Positions 19,698 through 57,196 of a DNA stretch of 64,000 bases are shown one piece after another. The first letter of the stretch is position 1, and every line of letters starts with the position of its first letter. The position numbers were made by a program, and so were the translations under genes. Source of the DNA: Anaerolineae bacterium (GTDB lineage: Bacteria > Chloroflexota > Anaerolineae > Promineifilales > Promineifilaceae). Location of the stretch: assembly GCA_020848035.1 (NCBI GenBank), contig JADLAX010000026.1:256180-320179 (forward strand), in the 5' to 3' direction. A model generated the notes under the pieces. That model worked only from the letters and a program-made list of their open reading frames with translations, searched no databases and was not told the origin of the DNA.

Positions 19698-19753
19698 CGT
19701 GATGCGTGATGCGTGATACGTGACCAGAGGTGCATCACGCATCACGCATCACG
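19698..19753. repeat. Simple-repeat hairpin, (GTGATGC)n arms
   Basis: CGTGATGCGTGATGCGTGAT (19698..19717) pairs with ATCACGCATCACGCATCACG (19734..19753). 20-bp perfect stem. Confidence 0.9.
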
Positions 19754-19810
19754 CGCTCACTTCCATGAATACCTGAAGCCTTAAAAATTTTTCGACAACA
19801 GGAGAAAAAA

Positions 19811-22065: not shown

Positions 22066-22133
22066 GGAGATTGGAGATTAGAGATTGGAGATTAGGGAGC
22101 GGCCCAATCTCCAATCTCTAATCTCCAATCTCC
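22066..22133. repeat. Simple-repeat hairpin, (GGAGATT)n arms
   Basis: Left arm 22066..22093 GGAGATTGGAGATTAGAGATTGGAGATT. Right arm 22106..22133 is its exact reverse complement. 12-nt loop. Starts 1 nt after the ecfA stop. Confidence 0.9.
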
Positions 22134-25182: not shown

Positions 25183-27222
25183 TTATTCTTCAACGATGAT
25201 AGTAGTCAATAAATAGGCATCCGTTGCGCCATCTGGGGTAGTAATGGGCAGGCGGTTGGTGGGGTTGGCCAGATCGTAGAGACCGAGCAGGAGGCGGTAG
25301 CTGCCGGGTGGCAAATCGCTGGGCAGGAGCAGGCCGTGATTATCCAGCACCACTGTGCCGGGCGGCCAGGTGGTGGTGAGGGCCAGGCCGCCGCCCGGTT
25401 CGCTGTCGCGCTGGCTGACCAGGTTACCATTTTCATCCAGCAGGTGCAGGAACACTTTGTAGCGGTTTTGGAGGGGTACGGCCGTTTCCCAAAACAGCGT
25501 CACCTCCACAATATCACCCGGTTGCAGGATTGTTTCACCCAAAGTGTAGCCATCTAGCACGATATTTTCGCCAAAGGGGAGGGAAACGGCCGTTGCCATC
25601 TCGGTGGCGGGCGCAGAGGGTACGGCGTAGGTGACAAAACGCACGTCGCCAACCCACTCGTCGGTGGCTTTGAAGGCGTGGGCGTCCAGCCAGCGCTCAA
25701 CCAGCCGTTCGGGATCGCGCTGCGCCTCGCCCCAGAAGATAGCGTAAATGCGGTTGTGCTGGGCGGCAATCTGGCTGAGGGCGGCGTCGATGTCGGCGGG
25801 ATTGGGGCGGCTGCGGCCCTCTGGCAGGGGAAAGACGTTGCCGTCGTCGGGGAAGTAGTAGGTGAACGCTTCCCACTGGTTGGCGGCGTTCAAAATGATA
25901 CCCGCATCGGGATGATCTTCGGCCAGAATGCGCTGGGCCATGGCGCGGTAATCGGCCCGGGCGTAGGCCGGATCGGCGTACATGTTTTGCAGCGATTGGA
26001 GCATGCCCCACGGCAGCACTAGCAGCAGCACGCCCGCCAGCAGGCGAAAGCCGCGCTGGTTGGTTTCCGTCAGCGCAGCCCCCAGCCAGATTGCCCAGAA
26101 CGGCACAGCGACCATCAAAAATTTGTAATATTCGCGGCCCGTCGTGCCGGTGGCATACATCATGACCAGCGGAATGAGCACGCCCAAAACGGGCAAGATG
26201 AGTTTAGACCGGGCGTACACCAACCCAATCCCCAACAAACCAGCCACCAGCCACAATAAACTCGCTTCTGGTTCAATTGTCTGGCCAAAGGTGAGGAAGT
26301 GGGCAACGGCCGTAACCAACTCCCCCACCCCCGGCCGGTTAATCGGATCACTGCCAAACTGGACCCAAAATGTGGGCAGCCAGGGCGCATAAAGCAGCAG
26401 CGTGGCCAGCATGAGGAAGGACCAATGCTTAATGGTTAATGGGAAATGGTTACTGGTTAATGGTTTGGGCAAGGATTGGATAATTTTGATGAGGACAAAC
26501 AGATTGTGGACGAGGAGGACGGCGGGGAAAAAGTAGTGCGTGTACAACCCCGCCGCCGCACACAGCACATACGCGCCACCCCACCACCATTGCCGATTAC
26601 CGCTCACCGATAACCGATTACCGATTACCGACCACCAGCGCAGCAGCAAAACCGTCGACAGCACCGCCCACAAACCCAGCAGCGCATACATTCGTGTTTC
26701 CTGGCTGTAATACACCAGCCCTGGATTGATAGCGACCAACCCCGCCGCCACCAAGCCCAATCTCTGTGCCCCTCTGTGCCGCCTCTGCGTAACTCTGTGT
26801 TCCGCTTTTTCCTGTTGCTGAAGCGGCCGTTTCGACACGCTCAACGCCCTTCCCAGTACAAACGTCAACGGCACCACCAACAACCCGGCAAACACGGACA
26901 GCGAACGCAGGCCAAATTCGCTGTCGCCCGCCAGCTTGCGCCACTGGTGCAGCAGCAGGTAGTAAAGCGGCGGATGAATGTCGCTGGCGGTGCCCTCGAT
27001 AATGAGCGGGATGGAGCGCTCGCTCAGCCGGGCGCTGTTCCCCTCATCATTCCAAAACGACTGCACTTCCAGATTATGCACCTGCAGTCCAAACGCCAGC
27101 AGCAAAATCGCCACCAGAAGATATTGCTTAGCCACAGAGGGCACAGAGAAATGAGAGATTTTGGGTTTTTTCTCTGCGATCTCCGCGTCCTCTGCGGTGA
27201 AATCTTTAGGCTTCAGGTTCAT
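25183..27222 (-). CDS. GT39/ArnT-like membrane glycosyltransferase with C-terminal soluble domain
   Basis: FWNDEGNSARLSER..DIHPPLYYLLLHQW and more than 10 TM segments. Carries in-frame simple-repeat insertions (see findings). Overlaps the upstream GH gene by 17 nt. Confidence 0.8.
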   Translation of the reverse strand: MNLKPKDFTAEDAEIAEKKPKISHFSVPSVAKQYLLVAILLLAFGLQVHNLEVQSFWNDEGNSARLSERSIPLIIEGTASDIHPPLYYLLLHQWRKLAGDSEFGLRSLSVFAGLLVVPLTFVLGRALSVSKRPLQQQEKAEHRVTQRRHRGAQRLGLVAAGLVAINPGLVYYSQETRMYALLGLWAVLSTVLLLRWWSVIGNRLSVSGNRQWWWGGAYVLCAAAGLYTHYFFPAVLLVHNLFVLIKIIQSLPKPLTSNHFPLTIKHWSFLMLATLLLYAPWLPTFWVQFGSDPINRPGVGELVTAVAHFLTFGQTIEPEASLLWLVAGLLGIGLVYARSKLILPVLGVLIPLVMMYATGTTGREYYKFLMVAVPFWAIWLGAALTETNQRGFRLLAGVLLLVLPWGMLQSLQNMYADPAYARADYRAMAQRILAEDHPDAGIILNAANQWEAFTYYFPDDGNVFPLPEGRSRPNPADIDAALSQIAAQHNRIYAIFWGEAQRDPERLVERWLDAHAFKATDEWVGDVRFVTYAVPSAPATEMATAVSLPFGENIVLDGYTLGETILQPGDIVEVTLFWETAVPLQNRYKVFLHLLDENGNLVSQRDSEPGGGLALTTTWPPGTVVLDNHGLLLPSDLPPGSYRLLLGLYDLANPTNRLPITTPDGATDAYLLTTIIVEE
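26424..26465. repeat. Six AATGGTT-type heptamers (42 nt) inside the GT39-like CDS
   Basis: AATGCTT AATGGTT AATGGGA AATGGTT ACTGGTT AATGGTT. Translated as ..LTSNHFPLTIKHW.. Confidence 0.85.
26594..26635. repeat. Six CGATTAC-type heptamers (42 nt) inside the GT39-like CDS
   Basis: CGATTAC CGCTCAC CGATAAC CGATTAC CGATTAC CGACCAC. Translated on the minus strand as ..SVIGNRLSVSGNR.. Confidence 0.85.
27133..27197. repeat. CACAGAG / CTCTGCG element forming the 5' end of the GT39-like ORF
   Basis: CACAGAGGGCACAGAGA ... TCTCTGCGATCTCCGCGTCCTCTGCGG. Related CTCTGTG decamers at 26761..26800, also inside the ORF. Confidence 0.7.
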
Positions 27223-32927: not shown

Positions 32928-35372
32928 ATGCTTGAGACAGAACAAGAGATTCAAACACGTTTAGCCAGTGACACACCGGCAGAACCACTGTACATCAGCA
33001 CCGCCGAAATTTTAAGAGATTACACCCTGGCCAACGAAAGCCGCCACGCCAGCCTGATTGGGCGACGTGAAGTGCTCAGCGGCAAGGCCAAGTTTGGCAT
33101 CTTTGGCGATGGCAAAGAGGTAGCCCAACTGGCCATGGCCAAAGCGTTCAAAAAAGGCGACTTCCGCTCTGGCTACTACCGCGACCAGACCTTTATGTTT
33201 GCCACCGGGGCCGCCACCATCAAACAATTTTTTGCCCAGCTGTACGCCATCGCCGATGTCTCGCTGGAGCCACATTCGGCCGGGCGGCAGATGAATGCTC
33301 ATTTTGCATCGCGCAGTTTGGATGAAAACGGCCGTTGGCGTGACCTCACCCAGCAAATCAACACTTCCGCCGACGTTTCCCCCACCGGCAGCCAGATGCC
33401 CCGTTTGGTCGGCCTGGGCTATGCCTCTCGCCTCTACCGCGAGCTGGATGAGCTGAAACAGTTCACCCAATTTTCCCGCAATGGCAACGAGATTGCTTTT
33501 GGTACGATTGGCAACGCCAGCTGTGCCGAGGGCATGTTTTGGGAAGCGATCAACGCCATCGGCGTGCTGCAAGCACCCGTGGTGCTCTCCATTTGGGACG
33601 ATGGCTACGGCATCTCCGTGCCCAACGAATACCAGCACACCAAGGAAAATTTGAGCGACCTGCTGCAAGGTTTCCAGCGCGAGCCCAACAGCAAACGCGG
33701 CTTCGATATCTACACCGTGCGCGGCTGGGATTACATGGCCCTGATGGAGACGTACCAAAAAGCCACCCACATCGCCCGGCGTGACCACGTGCCCGCTATC
33801 ATCCACGTCATCGAGATGACCCAGCCGCAGGGGCATTCCACCTCCGGCAGCCACGAGCGCTACAAGTCCGAAGCGCGGCTGGCGTTTGAGGAGGAGTTCG
33901 ACTGCATCCGCAAAATGCGCGAATGGATCATCGAGCAGCGTATTGCCACGGCAGGCGAACTGGACCAGATTGAGCGTAATGCGCACAAGTCGGTGGAAAA
34001 CATTCGCACCAAGTTGTGGAAAACGTTCTCCCTGCCCATCTACAAAGAACGGCAAGAAGTGGCCAACATCATCGAAGAAATTGAGGCCACTTCACCCCGG
34101 CAGGCCGAACTGGCCAGGCTGCGGCGCAAGCTCATGGAAATCAAATCGCCCTTCCGCCGCGACAACATGGAAGCAATTCGCGAGGCGCTGCTGCTGGTGC
34201 GCGGTGAGCAGTCACCGGCCATGCAAAAGCTGGCGCAGTGGCGCACCAACCAGATCGCCATCAGCAAAGAACGGTACGGTTCACACCTCTACAGCCAGTC
34301 CAGCGAGACATACCGCAACGTGCGCGAGGTCAAGCCGGTTTACTCGGCCCAATCTGAAAGCCTGAAAGGGTTTGAAGTGCTGAACCGCACCTTCGACGCG
34401 ATGCTGGCTCGCGAGCCGCGTTTTGTTGCCTTTGGCGAGGACGTCGGCCAGTTGGGCGGCGTCAATCAATCAATGGCGGGTATGCAGGCCAAATACGGCA
34501 AGCTGCGCGTGTCGGACACCGGTATTCGCGAGGTGACGATTTTGGGCCAGGCGATTGGCCTGGCACTGCGAGGGTTACGGCCGTTAGCCGAAATCCAATA
34601 CCTCGACTACCTGCCCTACGCCCTGCAAATCATGTCCGATGACCTGGCCACGACCCAGTGGCGCACCCGGGGCGGCCAAAAAGCGCCGGTGATTGTGCGC
34701 ACGCGCGGCCACCGCCTGGAAGGCGTCTGGCACGGCGGTTCGCCAATGGGGGCAATTGTGCATCTGCTGCGCGGCATGCACGTGCTGGTGCCACGCAACA
34801 TGGTCCAGGCGGCCGGTTTTTACAACACGCTGCTGCAAATTGACGAGCCGGCGCTGATTGTGGAAGTGCTCAACGGCTACCGGCTTAAGGAGCGCGTGCC
34901 GGACAATCTGACCGAGTACACCATTCCCCTGGGCGTGCCCGAAGTGGTGCGTGAGGGTGACGATATCACTGTGGTTACCTACGGCGCGATGGTGGGCGTG
35001 GCTGAACGCGCCGCAGAGCTGCTGGCCCGCACGGGCATCGCCGTGGAGCTGATTGATGTACGGACGCTGCTGCCGTTTGATGTGAACGGCCGTATCGTTG
35101 AATCGCTCAAAAAGACCAGCCGCATCCTGTTTGTGGACGAGGATGTGCCCGGCGGAGCCACCGCCTACATGATGCAGCAGGTGATCGAACAGCAGCAGGG
35201 CTTTTACTGGCTGGACAGCGAACCGGCCACCCTGGCCGCCGCCGAACACCGCCCGGCCTACGGCTCCGACGGCAACTATTTCTCCAAACCCAACGCCGAA
35301 GACATCTTCGAAGTCGTCTACAACATCATGAACGAAGCCGAACCGGCGCGATATCCAATTTTTTACCGGTAA
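32928..35372 (+). CDS. Fused alpha/beta E1 component of a 2-oxoacid (branched-chain-type) dehydrogenase, TPP-dependent
   Basis: 814 aa. TPP region GNASCAEGMFWEAIN in the alpha part. The beta part has transketolase-like Pyr and C-terminal domains (ITVVTYGAMV..ELIDVRTLLPFD). Confidence 0.9.
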   Translation: MLETEQEIQTRLASDTPAEPLYISTAEILRDYTLANESRHASLIGRREVLSGKAKFGIFGDGKEVAQLAMAKAFKKGDFRSGYYRDQTFMFATGAATIKQFFAQLYAIADVSLEPHSAGRQMNAHFASRSLDENGRWRDLTQQINTSADVSPTGSQMPRLVGLGYASRLYRELDELKQFTQFSRNGNEIAFGTIGNASCAEGMFWEAINAIGVLQAPVVLSIWDDGYGISVPNEYQHTKENLSDLLQGFQREPNSKRGFDIYTVRGWDYMALMETYQKATHIARRDHVPAIIHVIEMTQPQGHSTSGSHERYKSEARLAFEEEFDCIRKMREWIIEQRIATAGELDQIERNAHKSVENIRTKLWKTFSLPIYKERQEVANIIEEIEATSPRQAELARLRRKLMEIKSPFRRDNMEAIREALLLVRGEQSPAMQKLAQWRTNQIAISKERYGSHLYSQSSETYRNVREVKPVYSAQSESLKGFEVLNRTFDAMLAREPRFVAFGEDVGQLGGVNQSMAGMQAKYGKLRVSDTGIREVTILGQAIGLALRGLRPLAEIQYLDYLPYALQIMSDDLATTQWRTRGGQKAPVIVRTRGHRLEGVWHGGSPMGAIVHLLRGMHVLVPRNMVQAAGFYNTLLQIDEPALIVEVLNGYRLKERVPDNLTEYTIPLGVPEVVREGDDITVVTYGAMVGVAERAAELLARTGIAVELIDVRTLLPFDVNGRIVESLKKTSRILFVDEDVPGGATAYMMQQVIEQQQGFYWLDSEPATLAAAEHRPAYGSDGNYFSKPNAEDIFEVVYNIMNEAEPARYPIFYR

Positions 35373-35420
35373 GGCATTGAATTACGAATCTGCAAACGTA
35401 AGATTTTTATCAAAGATTTC

Positions 35421-35463
35421 GCAGATTACGCAGATAAAAATCTTTTCAATCTGCGTAATCTGC
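35421..35463. repeat. Hairpin of the ATCAAAGATTTCGCAGATT family
   Basis: GCAGATTACGCAGAT pairs with ATCTGCGTAATCTGC (15-bp perfect stem), preceded by ATCAAAGATTTC, between E1 and E2. Confidence 0.85.
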
Positions 35464-35521
35464 TGATTTAACTCTCTCAATTTTGTATTTTGGCAAATAA
35501 GGGAGTGCAGTTGAGGAGCAC

Positions 35522-36808
35522 ATGGCAATACAAGTCGTCATGCCCGAGATGGGCGAAGGTGTGGTTGAAGGAACCATTTCCCGCTGGCTGAAGCAGGTGG
35601 GCGAGCAGGTGGACCAATACGAGCCGCTGCTGGAAATTGAAACGGACAAGGTAACCACCGAAGCCACCGCCGAAGAGGCGGGCACCGTGCTGGAAATCCT
35701 GGTGCCGGAGGGCGAGACGGTGGACGTGGGCACCGTGCTGGCAGTCATTGGCCAGCCAGGCGAGTCGCCCCAGAAAAACGGCAAGGCCCCGGCCCAAGAA
35801 ACAACGGCCAAAGCAGAACCTGCGCCGCCGCCGACTGCACCAAAAGCACAGGCAACGGCCGTTGCCCACCACCAACCCACCGAGCGCTACACCGGCCGCA
35901 TCAGCCCCGTCGTCGGCCGCATCGCCGCCGAGCACGAGGTAGACCTGAACCAGATCCACGGCACGGGCCGCGACGGCCGTATCACCAAAACCGACATCCT
36001 CGCCCACCTCGACCAACGCCAAACCAACCCACAACCCCTCACCCCCTCACCCGTTCACCCCATCACCCCGTCACCCCTTCACCCCGTCACCCGGTCACCC
36101 CGTCACCCGGTCACCTTGTCACCTGAACTCGCCACAGGCGAGGTTGTCCCCCTCACCCCCATGCGCCGGGCCATCGCCGAGCACATGGTACGCAGCGTGC
36201 AGACCAGCCCGCACGTCACCACCGTGTTTGAGTTTGACTTTACGGCCGTTGCCCACCACCGCACTGCCCACAAGGATCAATTTGCCCGAGATGGGGCCAA
36301 CCTCACCTTCACCGCCTACATCGTCGCCGCCACGGTGGCAGCGCTGAAGCAGCACCCGATGGCCAACAGCACCTGGACCGACGAGGGGATCGCGCTGAAG
36401 CGACAAATCAACATCGGCATGGCCGCCGCCATCGACGACGGCCTGATTGTGCCGGTGATCAAGGGGGCCGATGGCATGAACCTGCTTGGCCTGGCCCGCA
36501 CCATCAACGACCTCACCGAGCGAGCGCGGCGTAAGCAGCTCCAGCCCGGCGACGTGCAGGGCGGCACCTTCTCCATCACCAACCACGGCACCTCGGGCAG
36601 CCTCTTTGCCACGCCAATCATCAACCAGCCGCAGTGCGGCATTTTGGGCGTGGGCAAAATCGAGAAGCGGGTGAAGGTGATCAACGATGCGATTGCGATA
36701 CGGCCGCTCGCCTACGTTAGCTTCACCTTCGACCACCGCATCCTGGATGGGAAAACGGCCGATGATTTTGTCAGCACCATCAAGCAGGTGATTGAAAACT
36801 GGCAGTAA
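35522..36808 (+). CDS. Dihydrolipoamide acyltransferase (E2)
   Basis: Lipoyl motif LEIETDKVTTEA. E1/E3-binding domain SPVVGRIAAEHEVDLNQIHGTGRDGRITKTDIL. Catalytic SFTFDHRILDG. GAGGAG RBS. Confidence 0.9.
   Translation: MAIQVVMPEMGEGVVEGTISRWLKQVGEQVDQYEPLLEIETDKVTTEATAEEAGTVLEILVPEGETVDVGTVLAVIGQPGESPQKNGKAPAQETTAKAEPAPPPTAPKAQATAVAHHQPTERYTGRISPVVGRIAAEHEVDLNQIHGTGRDGRITKTDILAHLDQRQTNPQPLTPSPVHPITPSPLHPVTRSPRHPVTLSPELATGEVVPLTPMRRAIAEHMVRSVQTSPHVTTVFEFDFTAVAHHRTAHKDQFARDGANLTFTAYIVAATVAALKQHPMANSTWTDEGIALKRQINIGMAAAIDDGLIVPVIKGADGMNLLGLARTINDLTERARRKQLQPGDVQGGTFSITNHGTSGSLFATPIINQPQCGILGVGKIEKRVKVINDAIAIRPLAYVSFTFDHRILDGKTADDFVSTIKQVIENWQ
36039..36126. repeat. Eleven TCACCNNN octamers inside the E2 coding sequence
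   Basis: TCAC at 36039 and every 8 nt up to 36119. Translated as PLTPSPVHPITPSPLHPVTRSPRHPVTLSP (8-aa periodicity equals 3 octamers). Confidence 0.9.
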
Positions 36809-36834
36809 ACCGACTATTGGTAGTTGGGTAGCTG

Positions 36835-36868
36835 AGCCACTCGTGAATTTCATGAGTGGCTTTTTTTT
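36835..36868 (+). terminator. Intrinsic terminator after E2
   Basis: AGCCACTC (36835..36842) pairs with GAGTGGCT (36854..36861), followed by T8. Confidence 0.85.
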
Positions 36869-36972: not shown

Positions 36973-37049
36973 TCTTGTCATTCACCTAAATATTTTTAAC
37001 TTGTAGATCAATTTCTTTCCTAAACAAACCACCTGGCTAACAACGGTCT

Positions 37050-37076
37050 CAATTACCCAATTACTTAATTACTCAA
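37050..37076. repeat. Single-arm copy of the same family (AATTACNN octamers)
   Basis: CAATTACCCAATTACTTAATTACTCA immediately upstream of the MFS start. Confidence 0.7.
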
Positions 37077-37081
37077 AAGCC

Positions 37082-38467
37082 ATGACTACACCTACCCCCA
37101 ACCGACCCGCCGGGATGACCGGCTTTACCATCGTCTGGATTGGCCAGCTCGTTTCCCTGCTGGGCACCAGCATGACCAACTTCGCCCTCACCATCTGGGC
37201 CTTCGAGCAAACCGGCCGGGCCACCGACCTGGCCTTGATCGGCTTCTTTTTCCTGGTGCCGCTGCTCATCGTCAGCCCCATGGCCGGGGCGATTGTGGAC
37301 CGCCACGACCGCAAATTGATGATGATGGTCAGCGATCTGGCTTCCGGCGTAGTCACTATCATCGTGCTGATTTTGTATGCCACCGGCCTGCTGGAAGTGT
37401 GGCATCTGTACATCACCGCCGCCATTTCCGGCACCTTCCAGACGTTCCAATGGCCCGCTTACTCCGCCGCCATCAGCACCATGCTGCCCAAGACGCAGTA
37501 CGCCCGGGCCAACGGCATGATCTCCCTGGCTGAATCCGGCTCCGGCATTTTTGCCCCAGTGCTGGCGGGGGCGCTGCTGAGCTATTTTGGCCTGAACGCC
37601 GTATTTGCCATCGACATTATCTCCTTCGTCATCGCCATTGGGGCGCTGCTGGTGGTGAACATTCCCAACCCCAAACGCACCGAAGCGGGTGCGGAAAGCC
37701 AGGGCAGCATCTGGAAAGAGTCGGCCTACGGCTTTCGCTACATTTTGGCCCGGCCCAGCCTGCTCGGTTTGCAGCTGCTCTTTTTTGGGGCCAACTTTAT
37801 GGCGGCGCTGGGCGGTACCGTCTTTGCGCCCATGCTGCTGGCCCGGACGGGCAACAATGAACTCATTTTTGGCTCTGTGCAATCAGCCGGGGCCATTGGC
37901 GGGGTGATTGGCGGCCTGGTGATGAGTGCCTGGGGCGGGCCGAAACGACTGGTTCATGGCGTGGTCTTTGGCTGGATCATTTCGGGTCTTACCCAATCCG
38001 TTTTTGGCGCCGGGCAAATCTTGCCAGTCTGGCTGGTGACCAGCTTTATCATGTCGGCCCTGATACCGCTCATCAATGGCTCTAACCAGGCCATCTGGCA
38101 GGCCAAAGTGGCCCCCGACGTACAGGGGCGCGTTTTTGCCATTCGCCGCCTCATCGCCTGGGTCTCGACGCCGCTGGCGCAGCTCATCGCCGGGCCGCTG
38201 GCCGATTACGTGATGGAACCAGCCATGCAAGAAGGGGGTGCGCTGGCGGGCGCGTTTGGCGGACTGGTGGGCACCGGCAATGGCGCAGGCATGGGACTGA
38301 TGCTTTTCGTCTCGGGCATCCTGTCTAGCCTGGTGGCCCTGGCGGCTTATTCCACCAACGCCGTGCGCCACGCCGAAGATCTGCTGCCGGACCACGAGCA
38401 AACAGCCGCGGAAGAAGAGCATAACCCGGCGGCTGTCGCCGAACCGACACAGTTGGAAGGAGCGTAA
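37082..38467 (+). CDS. MFS transporter (EntS/MFS_3-like)
   Basis: 12 predicted TM segments. GAIVDRHDRKLMMM loop typical of this MFS subgroup. Confidence 0.85.
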   Translation: MTTPTPNRPAGMTGFTIVWIGQLVSLLGTSMTNFALTIWAFEQTGRATDLALIGFFFLVPLLIVSPMAGAIVDRHDRKLMMMVSDLASGVVTIIVLILYATGLLEVWHLYITAAISGTFQTFQWPAYSAAISTMLPKTQYARANGMISLAESGSGIFAPVLAGALLSYFGLNAVFAIDIISFVIAIGALLVVNIPNPKRTEAGAESQGSIWKESAYGFRYILARPSLLGLQLLFFGANFMAALGGTVFAPMLLARTGNNELIFGSVQSAGAIGGVIGGLVMSAWGGPKRLVHGVVFGWIISGLTQSVFGAGQILPVWLVTSFIMSALIPLINGSNQAIWQAKVAPDVQGRVFAIRRLIAWVSTPLAQLIAGPLADYVMEPAMQEGGALAGAFGGLVGTGNGAGMGLMLFVSGILSSLVALAAYSTNAVRHAEDLLPDHEQTAAEEEHNPAAVAEPTQLEGA

Positions 38468-38468
38468 C

Positions 38469-39647
38469 ATGCAGCAGTACGAAGGATATTTTAGTTTAGA
38501 CACGTTTTTGCTTGAAGTTCGGCTGAGGGACGGGCGGCTTACGGCCGTTTCCCCAGGTGTGCCGGAAGGGTACGAAGTGATTTTGCAGCCTACGGCCGTT
38601 CCCCACACTTTTACCCTGCTCCGTGGACCGCTGGCAGGGGTTACGGCCGTCTTCCACCACTCCCCCGACGGCAAACCCACCGGCCTGACCATCGGCGGCG
38701 AGTTTGAGCTGACTTACAGCCCCACCGCGCCGCCAACGCCGGACATCCCCACCGGGCAAGGGCTGCTGCCGCCAGAGCTGGTGCTGGACGCCGGCAAGGA
38801 AGCCGATTTTGCCGAACTGCTGGATGCGGTGCTGGGCGGCGACGGCGGGTTGTTAGACTACACCCTGCCCTACCCCAAACATGAATTTCTGCGCTACCTG
38901 GCCGCGCAAGACCGGTTCATTTTCCACGGCTCGCCCAAAGCCGACATTGAGGAATTTAGCACCCGCCGCACCTCGATGGAGCTGAATGACAAAAACGGCC
39001 GTGGCAACGTGCAGGGCATCTACGGCACCCACGACGGCCTCTGGCCCCTCTTTTTTGCCGTGGTAGACCGCGACAAGATCACCGGCTCCATCCGCAACGG
39101 GGTGCAGTTTTACCAAAACGACGACGGCGACGAGGTGGGTGTGTATCACTTCTCGGTGAACCAGGAGTGGCTGGACCAAAATCCGTGGCGCAGCGGCACG
39201 CTCTACGTGCTGCCGCGCCAAACCTTCCGACAAATGCCCATGACGGCCAGCGGCGGCCTGTCCAACGAGTGGGTCAGCGAACTGTCGGTCAGGCCGCTGG
39301 TGCGCCTGGCCGTCGCGCCGGAGGACTTTCCCTTCCTGGCCCAGGTGGGCGGCCATGATGATTCCGAGCTGATCAACCTGGGCACCCTGGGCGAGCAAAT
39401 CACCCAGGCCACCACCGCCGCCGATTTTGGCGCAGACTGTCTCAATTGGAAGCTCAGCTACTCGCCCGAATTGGGCGAAACGATTCTCAAGTACATTCCC
39501 CTGGCACAGAAGTTCATTCCGACGGCCCGGTTTGTGCTGCGTTTTGAGCCGGAAACGGCCGTCTGGCTGGAAATGTCTGGTCCACCGGCCGTCATGCAGG
39601 TGATGCGCGACCGGGTGGAAAGGCACCTGGCGGAGCGTGAAAAGTGA
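38469..39647 (+). CDS. Hypothetical protein, apparently translationally coupled to the MFS gene
   Basis: 392-aa ORF. Its ATG is 1 nt after the MFS stop. Native-looking codon usage with HIP copies read as TAV. I recognise no family. Confidence 0.6.
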   Translation: MQQYEGYFSLDTFLLEVRLRDGRLTAVSPGVPEGYEVILQPTAVPHTFTLLRGPLAGVTAVFHHSPDGKPTGLTIGGEFELTYSPTAPPTPDIPTGQGLLPPELVLDAGKEADFAELLDAVLGGDGGLLDYTLPYPKHEFLRYLAAQDRFIFHGSPKADIEEFSTRRTSMELNDKNGRGNVQGIYGTHDGLWPLFFAVVDRDKITGSIRNGVQFYQNDDGDEVGVYHFSVNQEWLDQNPWRSGTLYVLPRQTFRQMPMTASGGLSNEWVSELSVRPLVRLAVAPEDFPFLAQVGGHDDSELINLGTLGEQITQATTAADFGADCLNWKLSYSPELGETILKYIPLAQKFIPTARFVLRFEPETAVWLEMSGPPAVMQVMRDRVERHLAEREK

Positions 39648-39690
39648 AACGTGAAACGTGATTGATTCGTCATCACGTTTCACGCTTCAC
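39644..39690. repeat. Simple-repeat hairpin, (GTGAAAC)n arms
   Basis: GTGAAACGTGAAACGTGAT pairs with ATCACGTTTCACGCTTCAC (19 bp, 1 mismatch). The stop codon of the 392-aa ORF lies in the left arm. Confidence 0.85.
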
Positions 39691-39819
39691 GCCTCTTCTT
39701 CTCAAAACGGCGTCCCTATCATCCCCGGTAGGGGCGCTGTTTTTTTGCCAAACATCGAATCTGCCATATAATCCCGTCTATCTATTCACACTCTGAATAT
39801 TCTGTTTCTGAATAACATT

Positions 39820-55127: not shown

Positions 55128-55175
55128 AGGGCCGATTTTACCGCAGGAGAGGGTAATGTGGTAAAGAGGAGAAGG

Positions 55176-55246
55176 GGTGAGCGGGTGAAGGGGTGAAGGG
55201 GTGACAAGGTGACCGATAACCGTTTACCGTTTACCGAATACCGGTT
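55176..55246. repeat. Five GGTGANNN octamers followed by five ACCGNNN heptamers
   Basis: GGTGA at 55176, 55184, 55192, 55200 and 55208, then ACCGATA ACCGTTT ACCGTTT ACCGAAT ACCGGTT (55212..55246). The crotonase stop lies in the heptamers. Confidence 0.85.
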
Positions 55247-56009: not shown

Positions 56010-56133
56010 GGGGTAAGTGTACGAGGATGGGGGGGAAGTGGAAAGTAAAAAGTGGGAAGTGAGCAGGTGGCAGGTTTGCAAGTAGCAGGTGGCAAGTGGC
56101 ACGAGGCAGGATTGCAAAGCATCTAACGAAACT

Positions 56134-56186
56134 TCACCTTGTCACCTTGTCACCCCCTCACCCTGTCACCCCATCACCCCATCACC
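56134..56186. repeat. Seven TCACCNNN octamers (inverse orientation of the 55176 array)
   Basis: TCACC at 56134, 56142, 56150, 56158, 56166, 56174 and 56182. The LacI stop codon lies in the array. Confidence 0.85.
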
Positions 56187-57196
56187 GAACTCTCGCGCAC
56201 AATCAGCTTGGGCTGCAAAACAACAGAGGGGGATTCCAGGTTTTCTTCGTCGTCGAGCAGGGTGAGCAGCTGCTTTACACCCTGCCGGCCCATTTCGGCC
56301 ACGTCCTGGCGCACGGTGGTGAGCGAGGGTGAGAAATAGGGCGATTCAGGAATGTCGTCAAAACCGACAATGGCCAAATCTTGGGGAATTTGCCGGCCCA
56401 TTTGCCGGGCCACCTTCATCGCGCCCAGGGCCATCTGATCGTTACAAATAAACACGGCATCCATCTCCGGATGCCACTCCAGCAGCATGCGAATGCAGCG
56501 CTCGCCGCTGCTAGGTGTCCAATCGCCGTTAGCAATAAAACTTTCATCAACAAGACGGCCGTTTGCCGCCACCTCCTCACGCCAGCCCTGTTCACGCTGT
56601 CGGGCTTCCCACCAATTCATCGGCCCGGTGATCAGGCCAATGTTTTGCCGCCCTTGGGCAATGAGATGCTGCGTGGCAATACGGCCACCATGTTTATTGT
56701 CGATGACGGCCGTTACCAAATTCGGCCGTGGCTGAGCGTTTAAAAACACAATCGGCACCGTCAGGTTGGGCAGCGCCTGCTGGATCAAATCCCGATTTTG
56801 CCCAATTTCCGGCACCGCCCACAAAATGCCATCAACGTGATAAGACAAAATCTCACGCAGCACCTGGTTGGCATCAAACACCTCCGCATTGGGCAAAATG
56901 TTCAACATCAACGAGTAATCCTCTTCAACGGCCGCTTCCTGAATCCCTTGCAGCAGCAGCGACGGCCCGTACAGGCCAATGCTCGAACTCACCACCCCTA
57001 AAGAATAACTGCGGCCACGAATCAGGCTGCGGGCAATCTTGCTGGGCTGGTAGCCCAAATCATCAATGACCTGCTGCACATGTTCTCGGGTATCTGAGGC
57101 GACATCAGGACGGTCGTTTACCACCCGTGACACGGTCTGAGTTGAAACCCCAGCCGCCGCTGCAACCTCTTTAATCGTGACCCGTTTGAAATTCAT
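56174..57196 (-). CDS. LacI family transcriptional regulator (probable regulator of the adjacent sugar-utilisation genes)
   Basis: [25 protein letters not shown] plus a periplasmic-binding-protein-like core. Divergent from the sugar ABC operon. Confidence 0.9.

What the first reader, a model, noticed from the sequence alone, without database searches (positions are those of the whole stretch)
36039..36126. Octamer tandem array (TCACCNNN x11) translated in frame inside the E2 acyltransferase linker
TCAC recurs exactly every 8 nt from 36039 to 36119. Because 3 x 8 = 24 nt, the array is read in all three phases cyclically. This produces an 8-residue periodic peptide (PSPVHPIT / PSPLHPVT / RSPRHPVT / LSP) between the subunit-binding and catalytic domains.

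The same octamer family occurs in non-coding DNA at 55176..55215 and 56134..56186. The linker therefore looks like a simple-repeat element captured by, or inserted into, an essential gene at a position that tolerates Pro-rich spacers.
Basis: seen in the sequence. Interest (0 to 1): 0.65.

Follow-up and report, generated by a model that had tools for sequence, protein, structure and literature searches.

The report
Translated octamer repeat forming enzyme linker
A run of eleven 8-base DNA repeats really is read in all three codon phases to make the flexible tether of a 2-oxoacid dehydrogenase E2 enzyme. It is one case of a lineage-wide habit in these filamentous Chloroflexota of filling intergenic spacers and protein linkers with 7- and 8-base repeats.

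Summary
TCACC recurs with exact 8-nt spacing 11 times (36039-36126). It lies in frame in the E2 gene (35522-36808) between the E3-binding and catalytic domains, and encodes L173-P201.

It is not a recent insertion. Related species carry the same array at the same place with 5, 8 or 11 units, always n = 2 mod 3. An intergenic octamer array 1 kb downstream differs between the same two strains by a single unit. Units change in concert within species (TCACCAAG x3; TCTCC x4), which points to turnover at the DNA level.

Other species of the family carry different heptamer or octamer arrays in the same E2 linkers (AATCGCC gives NRQSPIA; AATGAGC gives MSNEQLA). Across 964 kb from 80 species, periods 7 and 8 account for 115 of 148 tandem arrays. 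Distant E2 genes have linker repeats of 9, 18 or 21 nt instead.

Best reading: a genome-typical non-triplet simple sequence repeat serving as a flexible linker. It expands and contracts by slippage, and selection keeps only three-unit steps. This is a new variant of known kinds and of moderate interest. Phase variation, G-quadruplex function and a mobile origin are not excluded, but nothing here supports them.

The parts
36039..36126 (+). Octamer array, 11 units of TCACC-NNN. It is read in all three phases and encodes E2 residues 173-201(202).
35522..36808 (+). 2-oxoacid dehydrogenase E2 (dihydrolipoyl acyltransferase), 428 aa. The substrate class is unresolved: every NCBIfam equivalog match falls below its cut-off.
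35531..35749 (+). Lipoyl domain (aa 4-76)
35750..35899 (+). Linker 1 (aa 77-126). It has no 7/8-nt array in this genome, but hosts octamer or heptamer arrays in L057, L037 and L027.
35900..36001 (+). E3/peripheral-subunit-binding domain (aa 127-160)
36002..36139 (+). Linker 2 (aa 161-206). 29 of its 46 residues are encoded by the array. The AF2 model gives pLDDT < 50 and no secondary structure for residues 169-202.
36140..36802 (+). Catalytic acyltransferase domain (aa 207-427), with the DHRxxDG motif intact
36124..36126 (+). TGA in the last unit (TCACCTGA), out of the E2 frame. By frame arithmetic on the stop-free frames, a 1-unit deletion would terminate here. It is conserved in window, L081, L124, L126 and L002.
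   Evidence: frame arithmetic is inference
36028..36108 (-). G-quadruplex-type motif on the template strand (10 G-runs of >=3), the longest such motif in the window
32928..35372 (+). Fused E1 alpha/beta subunit, 814 aa, upstream in the same orientation
55160..55212 (-). Intergenic array of the same TCACC-NNN family (about 5-6 units) in the opposite orientation, 33 nt upstream of a methyltransferase start codon
56134..56186 (+). Array of the same family (about 6.5 units), intergenic. Its reverse complement supplies the last 4 codons and the stop of the LacI-family gene 56174..57196(-).
37048..37076 (+). Intergenic octamer array (CTCAATTA type) just upstream of the MFS gene start. It serves as an internal control: it differs from strain L081/L082 by exactly one 8-nt unit.

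Best explanation
The block is a non-triplet simple sequence repeat: an octanucleotide 'long SSR', TCACC followed by three variable bases. It belongs to the class that litters this lineage's genomes. It sits in, and now largely constitutes, the flexible tether between the subunit-binding and catalytic domains of a 2-oxoacid dehydrogenase E2.

Why it can be coding. 3 x 8 = 24, so the ribosome reads the unit in all three phases, giving an 8-residue period (x-S-P-x-H-P-x-T). The sense orientation has no stop in any phase. The antisense orientation has TGA in every phase. Only this orientation can therefore be coding.

How it evolves. The array gains and loses units by strand slippage or unequal exchange. 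A change that is not a multiple of three units shifts the frame and removes the catalytic domain, so selection leaves only alleles with n = 2 mod 3 (5, 8, 11). Continuous turnover homogenises units within a lineage (concerted evolution). This keeps the DNA core TCACC intact even at synonymous codon positions.

What the peptide does. It has no sequence-specific role. It serves as an extended, Pro/Ser/Thr-rich, unstructured spacer that lets the lipoyl and binding domains swing.

Shown: the anatomy; the in-frame position; copy-number steps of three in the gene against one in an intergenic array; concerted changes; the lineage-wide excess of periods 7 and 8; recurrent occupation of E2 linkers by unrelated 7/8-mers.

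Inferred: slippage as the mechanism; purifying selection against frame-shifted alleles; the spacer function; actual translation.
For: Array and position.

Unit counts. Window has 11; L081/L082 have 8 (94% aa identity); L124/L125 have 8; L126 has 8; L002, L004, L010, L013 and L001 have 5. The alignment shows clean 24-nt gaps.

Internal control. The intergenic octamer array upstream of the MFS gene differs by exactly 8 nt between the window and L081/L082.

Concerted evolution. L013 has TCACCAAG x3, and L001 has TCTCC in 4 units.

DNA-level conservation. The core TCACC is invariant in 59/59 units, while positions 6-8 vary freely and change amino acids. Four-fold degenerate sites in the folded domains differ by 14-46% between the same species.

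Decay without turnover. L005 keeps the 8-nt phasing but has lost the motif.

Lineage-wide regime. In 964 kb from 80 species plus the window there are 67 arrays of period 7 and 48 of period 8, against at most 6 for any other period. A Markov resample gives 1 array. In 120 kb around distant E2 genes there are none of period 7 or 8, but there are arrays of 9, 18 and 21 nt (AAP, AAASGD).

Linkers as hosts. 24 arrays lie in E2 genes; every array of 3 or more copies lies in linker 1 or linker 2. The twice-longer E1 genes hold 4. Unrelated motifs occupy the same linker: AATCGCC x11 (NRQSPIA), AATCGTC x4, AATGAGC x10 (MSNEQLA), CCACTCG x5, GGGGAGCA x4.5.

The linker is predicted unstructured, and the mRNA strand has no excess secondary structure (z = +0.8).
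Against: - No direct evidence of translation. No proteomics is available, and the RNA evidence is a few short contigs that do not span the array.
- Population data are assembled contigs only, which drop rare variants. Low-frequency frame-shifted alleles could not be seen. Orthologues were retrieved by protein similarity, which favours intact frames.
- The conservation statistic for the TCACC core is biased upward, because units were recognised by similarity to TCACC.
- Persistence of VTPSPRHPVT in many species could also reflect some selection on the peptide.
- The same motif at tens of loci is not what purely random in-situ slippage predicts.
Confidence: 0.8

Rival explanations
1. Mobile or templated origin. 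The TCACC octamer array is a module that is actively seeded at new sites by a sequence-directed process. The E2 linker received one such module, which was tolerated there.
For: - The same family occurs at three sites in the window and at tens to hundreds of contigs per metagenome. Several of these have the same depth as this genome.
- A few motif families recur across species (AATTACTC 9, AATTACCC 8, AATCTCC 7).
- The E1-E2 intergenic spacer of strain L081 is a hairpin of tandem AATTACCN octamers. The window and L124 have a completely different spacer at that place, despite 94% E2 identity.
Against: - No flanking foreign sequence, terminal repeats or target duplication appear in the alignment of alleles.
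- The E2 array is inherited, not newly inserted, and grows at one site in 24-nt steps.
- Motif diversity is very high: about 60 canonical motifs in 152 arrays.
- No candidate enzyme was identified.
Confidence: 0.15
2. Peptide-level function. The 8-residue motif (S-P-x-H-P-V-T) is selected as a protein feature, for example a binding or regulatory motif. The DNA repetition would be a by-product of repeated duplication of a useful peptide.
For: VTPSPRHPVT(L/P)S is present in most orthologues above about 80% identity and in some at 70%.
Against: - Synonymous positions of the TCACC core do not vary, although four-fold sites elsewhere in the gene differ by 14-46%.
- The amino acids encoded by the variable positions change freely.
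- L001 changed His to Leu in all units (TCTCC). L013 changed P/R to K/S/Q.
- Sister clades use unrelated peptides (NRQSPIA, MSNEQLA) or ordinary Pro/Ala linkers.
Confidence: 0.08
3. Contingency locus. The octamer array is a slippage switch that turns E2 off and on (phase variation) in a subpopulation.
For: - It is a non-triplet SSR of 11 units inside an ORF, the anatomy of classical phase-variable genes.
- A -1 unit change would stop at the TGA at the array's end, and a +1 unit change would stop 74 codons later. Both remove the catalytic domain (frames).
Against: - All alleles found are in frame: 5, 8 or 11 units.
- Contigs spanning the array in other studies show no 8- or 16-nt indel.
- The gene is a central-metabolism enzyme, not a surface or restriction-modification gene.
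- The array interior is imperfect (84% matches), which lowers slippage rates.
- Dozens of species keep such arrays in the same essential position.
Confidence: 0.04
4. DNA-structure function. The G-rich template strand (GGGGTGAN)n forms a G-quadruplex, or the C-rich strand an i-motif, and this modulates transcription or replication of the operon.
For: - 36028-36108(-) is the longest G4-type motif in the window, and three of the window's six motifs come from this octamer family.
- With quadruplex energies the minus strand folds at -44 kcal/mol, against -18.5 without.
- G4-forming heptamer SSR families are described in Xanthomonas and Nostoc (PMC4692102).
Against: - Other species fill the same linker with arrays that cannot form G4 (AATCGCC, AATGAGC).
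- L013 (TCACCAAG) and L001 (TCTCC) weaken the G-runs but keep the array.
- No experimental evidence exists.
- The orientation is already explained by stop codons.
Confidence: 0.06

Closest known systems
Long simple sequence repeats (unit 5-11 nt) of prokaryotic genomes (Mrazek and co-workers, 2007, as summarised in PMC4679880 and PMC4692102), including the cyanobacterial heptamer STRR families
   Same: Head-to-tail units of 7-8 nt, many loci per genome, mostly intergenic. Heptamers predominate. Slippage is proposed as the generator. Copy number differs between close relatives.
   Different: Here octamers are as common as heptamers in the closest relatives: 42 against 39. The cited surveys state that units that are multiples of three are the ones found in coding regions. 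Here non-triplet units are stably coding in a core enzyme across many species.
TAACTGA heptamer repeats of marine Beggiatoaceae, cyanobacteria and Bacteroidetes (MacGregor 2015, PMC4679880)
   Same: An abundant intergenic heptamer family in large filamentous bacteria. One orientation has stops in all frames and the other can be translated. A few copies lie inside ORFs at variable or peripheral positions, for example LSVINYQLS in an RNA polymerase beta-prime surface loop.
   Different: Those coding cases have 2-3 units and are single-genome observations. Here there are up to 11 units, the array is orthologous across species, copy number moves in three-unit steps, and the array makes up most of a functional inter-domain linker.
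G-quadruplex-forming heptamer SSRs GGGAATC (Xanthomonas) and GGGGA(C/T)T (Nostoc) (Rehm et al. 2015, PMC4692102)
   Same: A G-run plus a short spacer repeated four or more times. Located close to gene ends. Under-represented with the G-rich strand as the coding strand.
   Different: The unit here is 8 nt (GGGGTGAN). Quadruplex formation is untested. This copy is inside a gene with the G-rich strand as template.
Ala/Pro-rich inter-domain linkers of 2-oxoacid dehydrogenase E2 chains (established knowledge of the family)
   Same: Same position, similar length (about 40-55 residues), Pro-rich, variable, predicted unstructured. Linker-coding DNA is often tandemly repetitive. Distant E2 genes fetched here have 9-, 18- and 21-nt repeats giving AAP and AAASGD.
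   Different: The period is not a multiple of three, so one DNA unit yields three different peptide readings. The composition is P/S/T/H/V rather than A/P.
Phase-variable contingency loci (tetra- to heptanucleotide SSRs in ORFs of Haemophilus, Neisseria and Helicobacter)
   Same: A non-triplet SSR inside an ORF. A single-unit change would shift the frame.
   Different: No out-of-frame alleles were seen. The gene is a housekeeping metabolic gene. The array is mid-gene in a linker rather than near the 5' end, and it is conserved in frame over long evolutionary distances.

Membership tests
2-oxoacid dehydrogenase E2 inter-domain linker | Lies between the peripheral-subunit-binding domain and the catalytic acyltransferase domain of an E2 chain | tested here: met
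   Pfam E3_binding at 127-160 and 2-oxoacid_dh at 207-427; the array encodes residues 173-201
2-oxoacid dehydrogenase E2 inter-domain linker | Low-complexity, Pro-rich, variable in sequence and length among orthologues | tested here: met
   9 Pro in 29 residues. Linker length is 37-66 aa and unalignable across 80 species, while the flanking domains are highly conserved.
2-oxoacid dehydrogenase E2 inter-domain linker | Structurally disordered or extended | tested here: inconclusive
   The AF2 model gives pLDDT < 50 and coil for residues 169-202, but the whole model is poor (mean pLDDT 57.5).
Prokaryotic long simple sequence repeat (unit 5-11 nt) | Three or more head-to-tail copies of a 5-11 nt unit without spacers | tested here: met
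   11.4 copies, period 8, exact phasing
Prokaryotic long simple sequence repeat (unit 5-11 nt) | Copy-number polymorphism between close relatives | tested here: met
   11, 8 and 5 units in relatives; one-unit difference in the neighbouring intergenic array
Prokaryotic long simple sequence repeat (unit 5-11 nt) | Genome-wide over-representation of the class | tested here: met
   115 arrays of period 7 or 8 in 964 kb, against 1 array of any period in a Markov resample. Only the window and 13-kb loci were surveyed, not whole genomes.
Phase-variable contingency locus | Alleles or reads differing by non-multiples of three nucleotides that switch the ORF on and off | tested here: not met
   All alleles are in frame and spanning contigs show no 8- or 16-nt indels. 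Caveat: these are assembled contigs only, and no raw or long reads were available.
Phase-variable contingency locus | Gene class under fluctuating selection (surface structure, restriction-modification, adhesin) | tested here: not met
   The gene is a 2-oxoacid dehydrogenase E2 next to its E1.
G-quadruplex-forming SSR | Four or more G-runs of >=3 separated by loops of 1-7 nt | tested here: met
   10 G-runs on the minus strand, motif 36028-36108
G-quadruplex-forming SSR | Quadruplex formation shown in vitro or in vivo | not testable with these tools
   Only an energy-model prediction is available.
Mobile element or MITE-like insertion | Discrete boundaries with terminal repeats or target-site duplication, and empty versus filled orthologous sites | tested here: not met
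   The allele alignment shows only gain and loss of whole 24-nt blocks inside the array plus an unrelated 45-nt indel of unique linker sequence. No foreign flanks appear. No dedicated search for terminal repeats was run.

The most novel reading that the evidence does not exclude
These filamentous Chloroflexota (Promineifilaceae / Ardenticatenaceae) may possess an active, possibly sequence-directed process that seeds and expands 7-8 nt arrays, often as inverted pairs that form perfect hairpins. Such a process would continually rewrite intergenic spacers and, where tolerated, protein linkers and loops. The E2 array would then be a domesticated product of an unrecognised spacer-generating system, rather than of passive slippage alone.
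Probability: 0.15. Interest if true: 0.75.

Novelty: new variant of a known kind. Interest (0 to 1): 0.45.

Why it matters
Non-triplet simple repeats inside genes are usually read as on/off switches or as errors. Here one is a stable building material for a protein linker in a core metabolic enzyme. It is kept in frame over long evolutionary distances by three-unit steps.

The locus offers a natural, orthologous series (5, 8 and 11 units, plus unrelated heptamer versions). This series could be used to measure slippage and selection on coding SSRs, and to ask how much the E2 swinging-arm linker cares about sequence as opposed to length.

It also flags a strong lineage-specific 7/8-nt repeat regime in abundant wastewater Chloroflexota. 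That regime fragments short-read assemblies at these sites and produces spurious small ORFs. Annotators and binners should know about it.

Tried and rejected
- Metagenome scan for strain-level alleles with the E2 protein. It returned one relative at 78% and otherwise distant E2 genes. These were useless for copy-number polymorphism, though they served as a contrast set.
- Peptide search with (SPRHPVTP)n against 5.8 billion proteins. It gave only 11 short 'hypothetical' ORFs of 54-78 aa in unrelated phyla, probably intergenic arrays called as genes. It did not reveal other host proteins.
- Search for Nanopore runs: none found. All runs are served as contigs, so within-population length heterogeneity could not be measured.
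- RNA runs: only a few short near-identical contigs, none across the array.
- AF2 model: too poor for anything beyond 'linker not confidently structured'.
- Rfam: no family anywhere in the window.
- Canonical RNA folding of the array on either strand: no better than shuffles.
- Pfam on the 679-aa ORF that holds two heptamer arrays: no significant hit. There is only a sub-threshold NCBIfam match to an Agl23-like membrane protein.
- Assembly artefact: considered and rejected, because independent studies carry the same alleles.
- CRISPR-like or other spacer-containing repeat: considered and rejected, because there are no spacers and the period is 8.
Full report
**1. The observation**

The window's highest-scoring tandem repeat is at 36034..36123: period 8, 11.4 copies, 84% matches, score 110. 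Reading the sequence shows eleven units TCACC-NNN with exact 8-nt spacing from 36039 to 36126. The pattern TCACCN3TCACCN3TCACC (<=1 mismatch) occurs 18 times, against 0.01 expected from dinucleotide shuffles. It occurs only at three places: 36039-36123 (+), 55168-55212 (-) and 56134-56186 (+).

The array lies in ORF 35522..36808 (+), 428 aa. Pfam places Biotin_lipoyl at residues 4-76, E3_binding at 127-160 and 2-oxoacid_dh at 207-427. A fused E1 alpha/beta gene of 814 aa lies just upstream. NCBIfam does not resolve which 2-oxoacid the complex uses, because every equivalog match is below its cut-off.

The two other arrays are real and essentially intergenic. One is in reverse orientation. The other supplies the last four codons and the stop of a LacI-family gene.

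**2. Whose genome this is, and whether the array is an insertion**

The E2 protein's relatives are MAGs of Chloroflexota labelled Ardenticatenaceae, Anaerolineae, Candidatus Leptofilum and Promineifilaceae, mostly from wastewater. The best hit has 94% identity.

In the protein alignment the motif VTPSPRHPVT(L/P)S recurs in most orthologues down to about 70% identity. (TCACCCCG)x3 translates to SPRHPVTP, so I fetched orthologue DNA to check. The same octamer array sits at the same place:

| Locus | Units |
|---|---|
| window | 11 |
| L081/L082 (protein P0001, two independent samples) | 8 |
| L124/L125 | 8 |
| L126 | 8 |
| L002, L004, L010, L013 | 5 |
| L001 (core changed to TCTCC) | 5 |

A DNA alignment shows clean 24-nt gaps and an identical 3' end, TCACCTTGTCACCTGAA. 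L005 keeps the 8-nt phasing but has lost the motif through point changes.

The block is therefore old and inherited, not a recent 88-nt insertion. This lineage has expanded it. It also lost 45 nt of unique linker sequence that L124 and L126 still have.

**3. Frame constraint and turnover**

Every uninterrupted allele has n = 2 mod 3. An internal control sits 1 kb downstream: the intergenic octamer array just before the MFS gene start (37048-37076) differs between the window and L081/L082 by exactly one 8-nt unit. The coding array of the same two genomes differs by three units.

From the stop-free frames, losing one unit would terminate at the TGA inside the last unit (36124-36126). Gaining one would terminate 74 codons later. 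Both would remove the catalytic domain. This step is arithmetic inference.

Units evolve in concert. L013 has TCACCAAG three times, and L001 has TCTCC in four units. Across 59 units from nine lineages the core TCACC is invariant, while positions 6-8 vary and change amino acids. Four-fold degenerate sites in the folded domains of the same genes differ by 14-46%.

Each core base is a third codon position in one of the three phases. The conservation is therefore at the DNA level, as expected from continual duplication and loss of units, and not from selection on the peptide. One caveat applies: units were recognised by similarity to TCACC, which inflates this statistic.

**4. A general phenomenon in this lineage**

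I ran Tandem Repeats Finder on the window plus 80 species loci (964 kb). For arrays with at least 3 copies and score at least 40:

| Sequence set | Period 7 | Period 8 | Other periods |
|---|---|---|---|
| Window + 80 species loci (964 kb) | 67 | 48 | at most 6 each |
| First-order Markov resample of the same | 0 | 0 | 1 array in total |
| 120 kb around distant E2 genes of other lineages | 0 | 0 | 9, 18 and 21 nt (AAP, AAASGD) |

Octamers are concentrated in the closer relatives, 42 against 39 heptamers. The more distant half has 6 against 28.

Within E2 genes, every 7/8-type array of three or more copies lies in linker 1 or linker 2. There are 24 arrays in 102 kb of E2, against 4 in 171 kb of E1.

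The motifs are unrelated between clades:

- AATCGCC x11.4 gives NRQSPIA x4 in L028, and its sister L019 has AATCGTC x4.3.
- AATGAGC/AATTAGC x10 gives MSNEQLA x3 in L024, which also keeps two TCACC units.
- CCACTCG x5 occurs in L037.
- A 14-mer occurs in each of L015 and L061.
- GGGGAGCA octamers giving GEQGSRGA occur in linker 1 of L057, L037 and L027.

A rough neighbour-joining tree puts these in separate clades, so there were several independent acquisitions.

In the window itself, a 679-aa membrane-protein ORF, 25183..27222(-), reads through two heptamer arrays: SVIGNRLSVSGNR and KPLTSNHFPLTIKH. A sub-threshold Agl23-like match spans both.

**5. Dispersal of the TCACC family**

In eight metagenomes the contig depth over 36051-36131 is 30-200 times that of the flanks. 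Between 55 and 370 contigs per run match only the array and then continue into unrelated sequence. In the best-matching run, several of these contigs have the same depth (10.9-11.8) as the E2 flanks (10.6-11.5), so they are probably from the same genome. Short-read contigs break at the array. Contigs that do span it show 11 units and no 8- or 16-nt indel (X5, X6 and X13).

**6. Physical properties**

The mRNA strand has no excess secondary structure (z = +0.8).

The template strand is (GGGGTGAN)n. It has 10 G-runs and forms the longest G-quadruplex-type motif in the window. Three of the window's six such motifs belong to this family.

The antisense orientation carries TGA in every phase, which by itself explains why only the C-rich orientation is coding.

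The AF2 model is poor overall, but residues 169-202 have pLDDT < 50 and no secondary structure.

**7. Interpretation**

The best-supported account is a genome-typical non-triplet SSR that constitutes most of a flexible E2 linker. It turns over by slippage, with selection allowing only three-unit changes. Its peptide serves as a spacer rather than a specific motif. My confidence is about 0.8.

The rivals are:

- A mobile or templated origin of the arrays. This is suggested by dispersal of the motif, and by replacement of the E1-E2 spacer in L081 with a hairpin of tandem AATTACCN octamers.
- Selection on the peptide.
- Phase variation.
- G-quadruplex function.

None has positive support beyond anatomy. 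Phase variation is disfavoured by the in-frame allele series, although only assembled contigs were available.

**8. Comparison with known systems**

Long SSRs of 5-11 nt, dominated by heptamers, are known in prokaryotes. Surveys report that units which are multiples of three are the ones found in coding regions (summaries in PMC4679880 and PMC4692102).

MacGregor (PMC4679880) described TAACTGA heptamers in filamentous Beggiatoaceae, with a few short translated copies at variable protein positions. Rehm et al. (PMC4692102) described G4-forming heptamer families near gene ends.

Full-text searches found nothing on such repeats in Promineifilaceae or Leptofilum, nor on octamer-encoded E2 linkers. 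I file this as a new variant of known kinds: an SSR plus an E2 linker. The new features are the stable three-phase translation of a long non-triplet array in a core enzyme, the 5/8/11 allele series, and the recurrent use of E2 linkers by unrelated 7/8-mers across a bacterial family.

**9. Verdict**

Interest is moderate at 0.45. It is a clean natural example for the evolution of coding SSRs and linkers and a useful annotation warning, but it is not a new kind of system on present evidence.

Noticed in passing
window 19698-19754; 22066-22133; 39636-39692: Pairs of heptamer arrays in inverted orientation (CGTGATG/GCATCAC; GGAGATT/CCAATCT; CGTGAAA/TCACGCT). They fold into near-perfect hairpins of -44, -55 and -32 kcal/mol (z = -7, -11, -6). 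Two sit at the 3' ends of ORFs, like terminators built from tandem repeats. How both arms come to be arrays of the same unit is unexplained.
   Followed up: partly
window 25183-27222 (-), arrays at 26593-26636 and 26424-26465: A 679-aa membrane-protein ORF reads through two heptamer arrays, (CGGTAAT)n giving SVIGNRLSVSGNR and (AACCATT)-like giving KPLTSNHFPLTIKH. It has a sub-threshold Agl23/PMT-like match and no Pfam hit. This is a second case of translated non-triplet repeats in the same window.
   Followed up: partly
window 56020-56190: The 170-nt spacer between the enoyl-CoA hydratase start and the LacI-family stop consists almost entirely of three or four different arrays: AAGTGGA x3.7, GCAGGTG x6.7 and TCACCCTG x6.
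   Followed up: no
L081 2912-3000 versus window 35373-35521: The E1-E2 intergenic spacer differs completely between strains whose E2 is 94% identical. L081 has AATTACCN x5 followed by its reverse complement, a -31 kcal/mol hairpin. The window and L124 share a spacer with inverted 9-mer arrays (AGATTACGC). This suggests wholesale replacement of spacers by repeat modules.
   Followed up: partly
window 36818-36835 and 37048-37076; L081 4273-4297 and 4520-4555: GTAATTGA-type units after the E2 stop and their reverse complement (CAATTACN) before the MFS start flank the whole intergenic region, which holds a terminator hairpin and a promoter-like TTGACA. The upstream set has decayed in the window and is intact in L081.
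   Followed up: partly
80 species loci (L001-L080): The period spectrum of tandem repeats is almost exclusively 7 and 8 nt. Octamers are common only in the closer relatives of the window. The commonest canonical motifs are AATTACTC, AATTACCC, AATCTCC and AGCAGGGG.
   Followed up: yes
L027 3308-3341 (E1 gene, about aa 390): An octamer array GCGGGGGA x4.2 (AGERGSRGAGEQ) lies inside the fused E1, roughly at the junction of its alpha-like and beta-like halves. This is another inter-domain position.
   Followed up: no
proteins P0121-P0131: Short 'hypothetical proteins' of 54-78 aa from Brachybacterium, Acidobacteria and cyanobacteria (Merismopedia, Crocosphaera) consist of the same SPRHPVTP-type peptide. 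TCACCCCG-like arrays therefore exist in unrelated phyla and are probably being mis-called as genes.
   Followed up: no
L099-L102, L106 and others (distant E2 genes): Linkers of distant E2 genes carry 9-, 18- and 21-nt tandem repeats (AAP, AAASGD). Tandem duplication in E2 linker DNA is common, but elsewhere it uses codon-multiple periods.
   Followed up: partly
L081 5967-6308 versus window 38467-38469: Strain L081 has an extra 113-aa thioredoxin gene between the MFS gene and the next ORF. The window lacks it.
   Followed up: no
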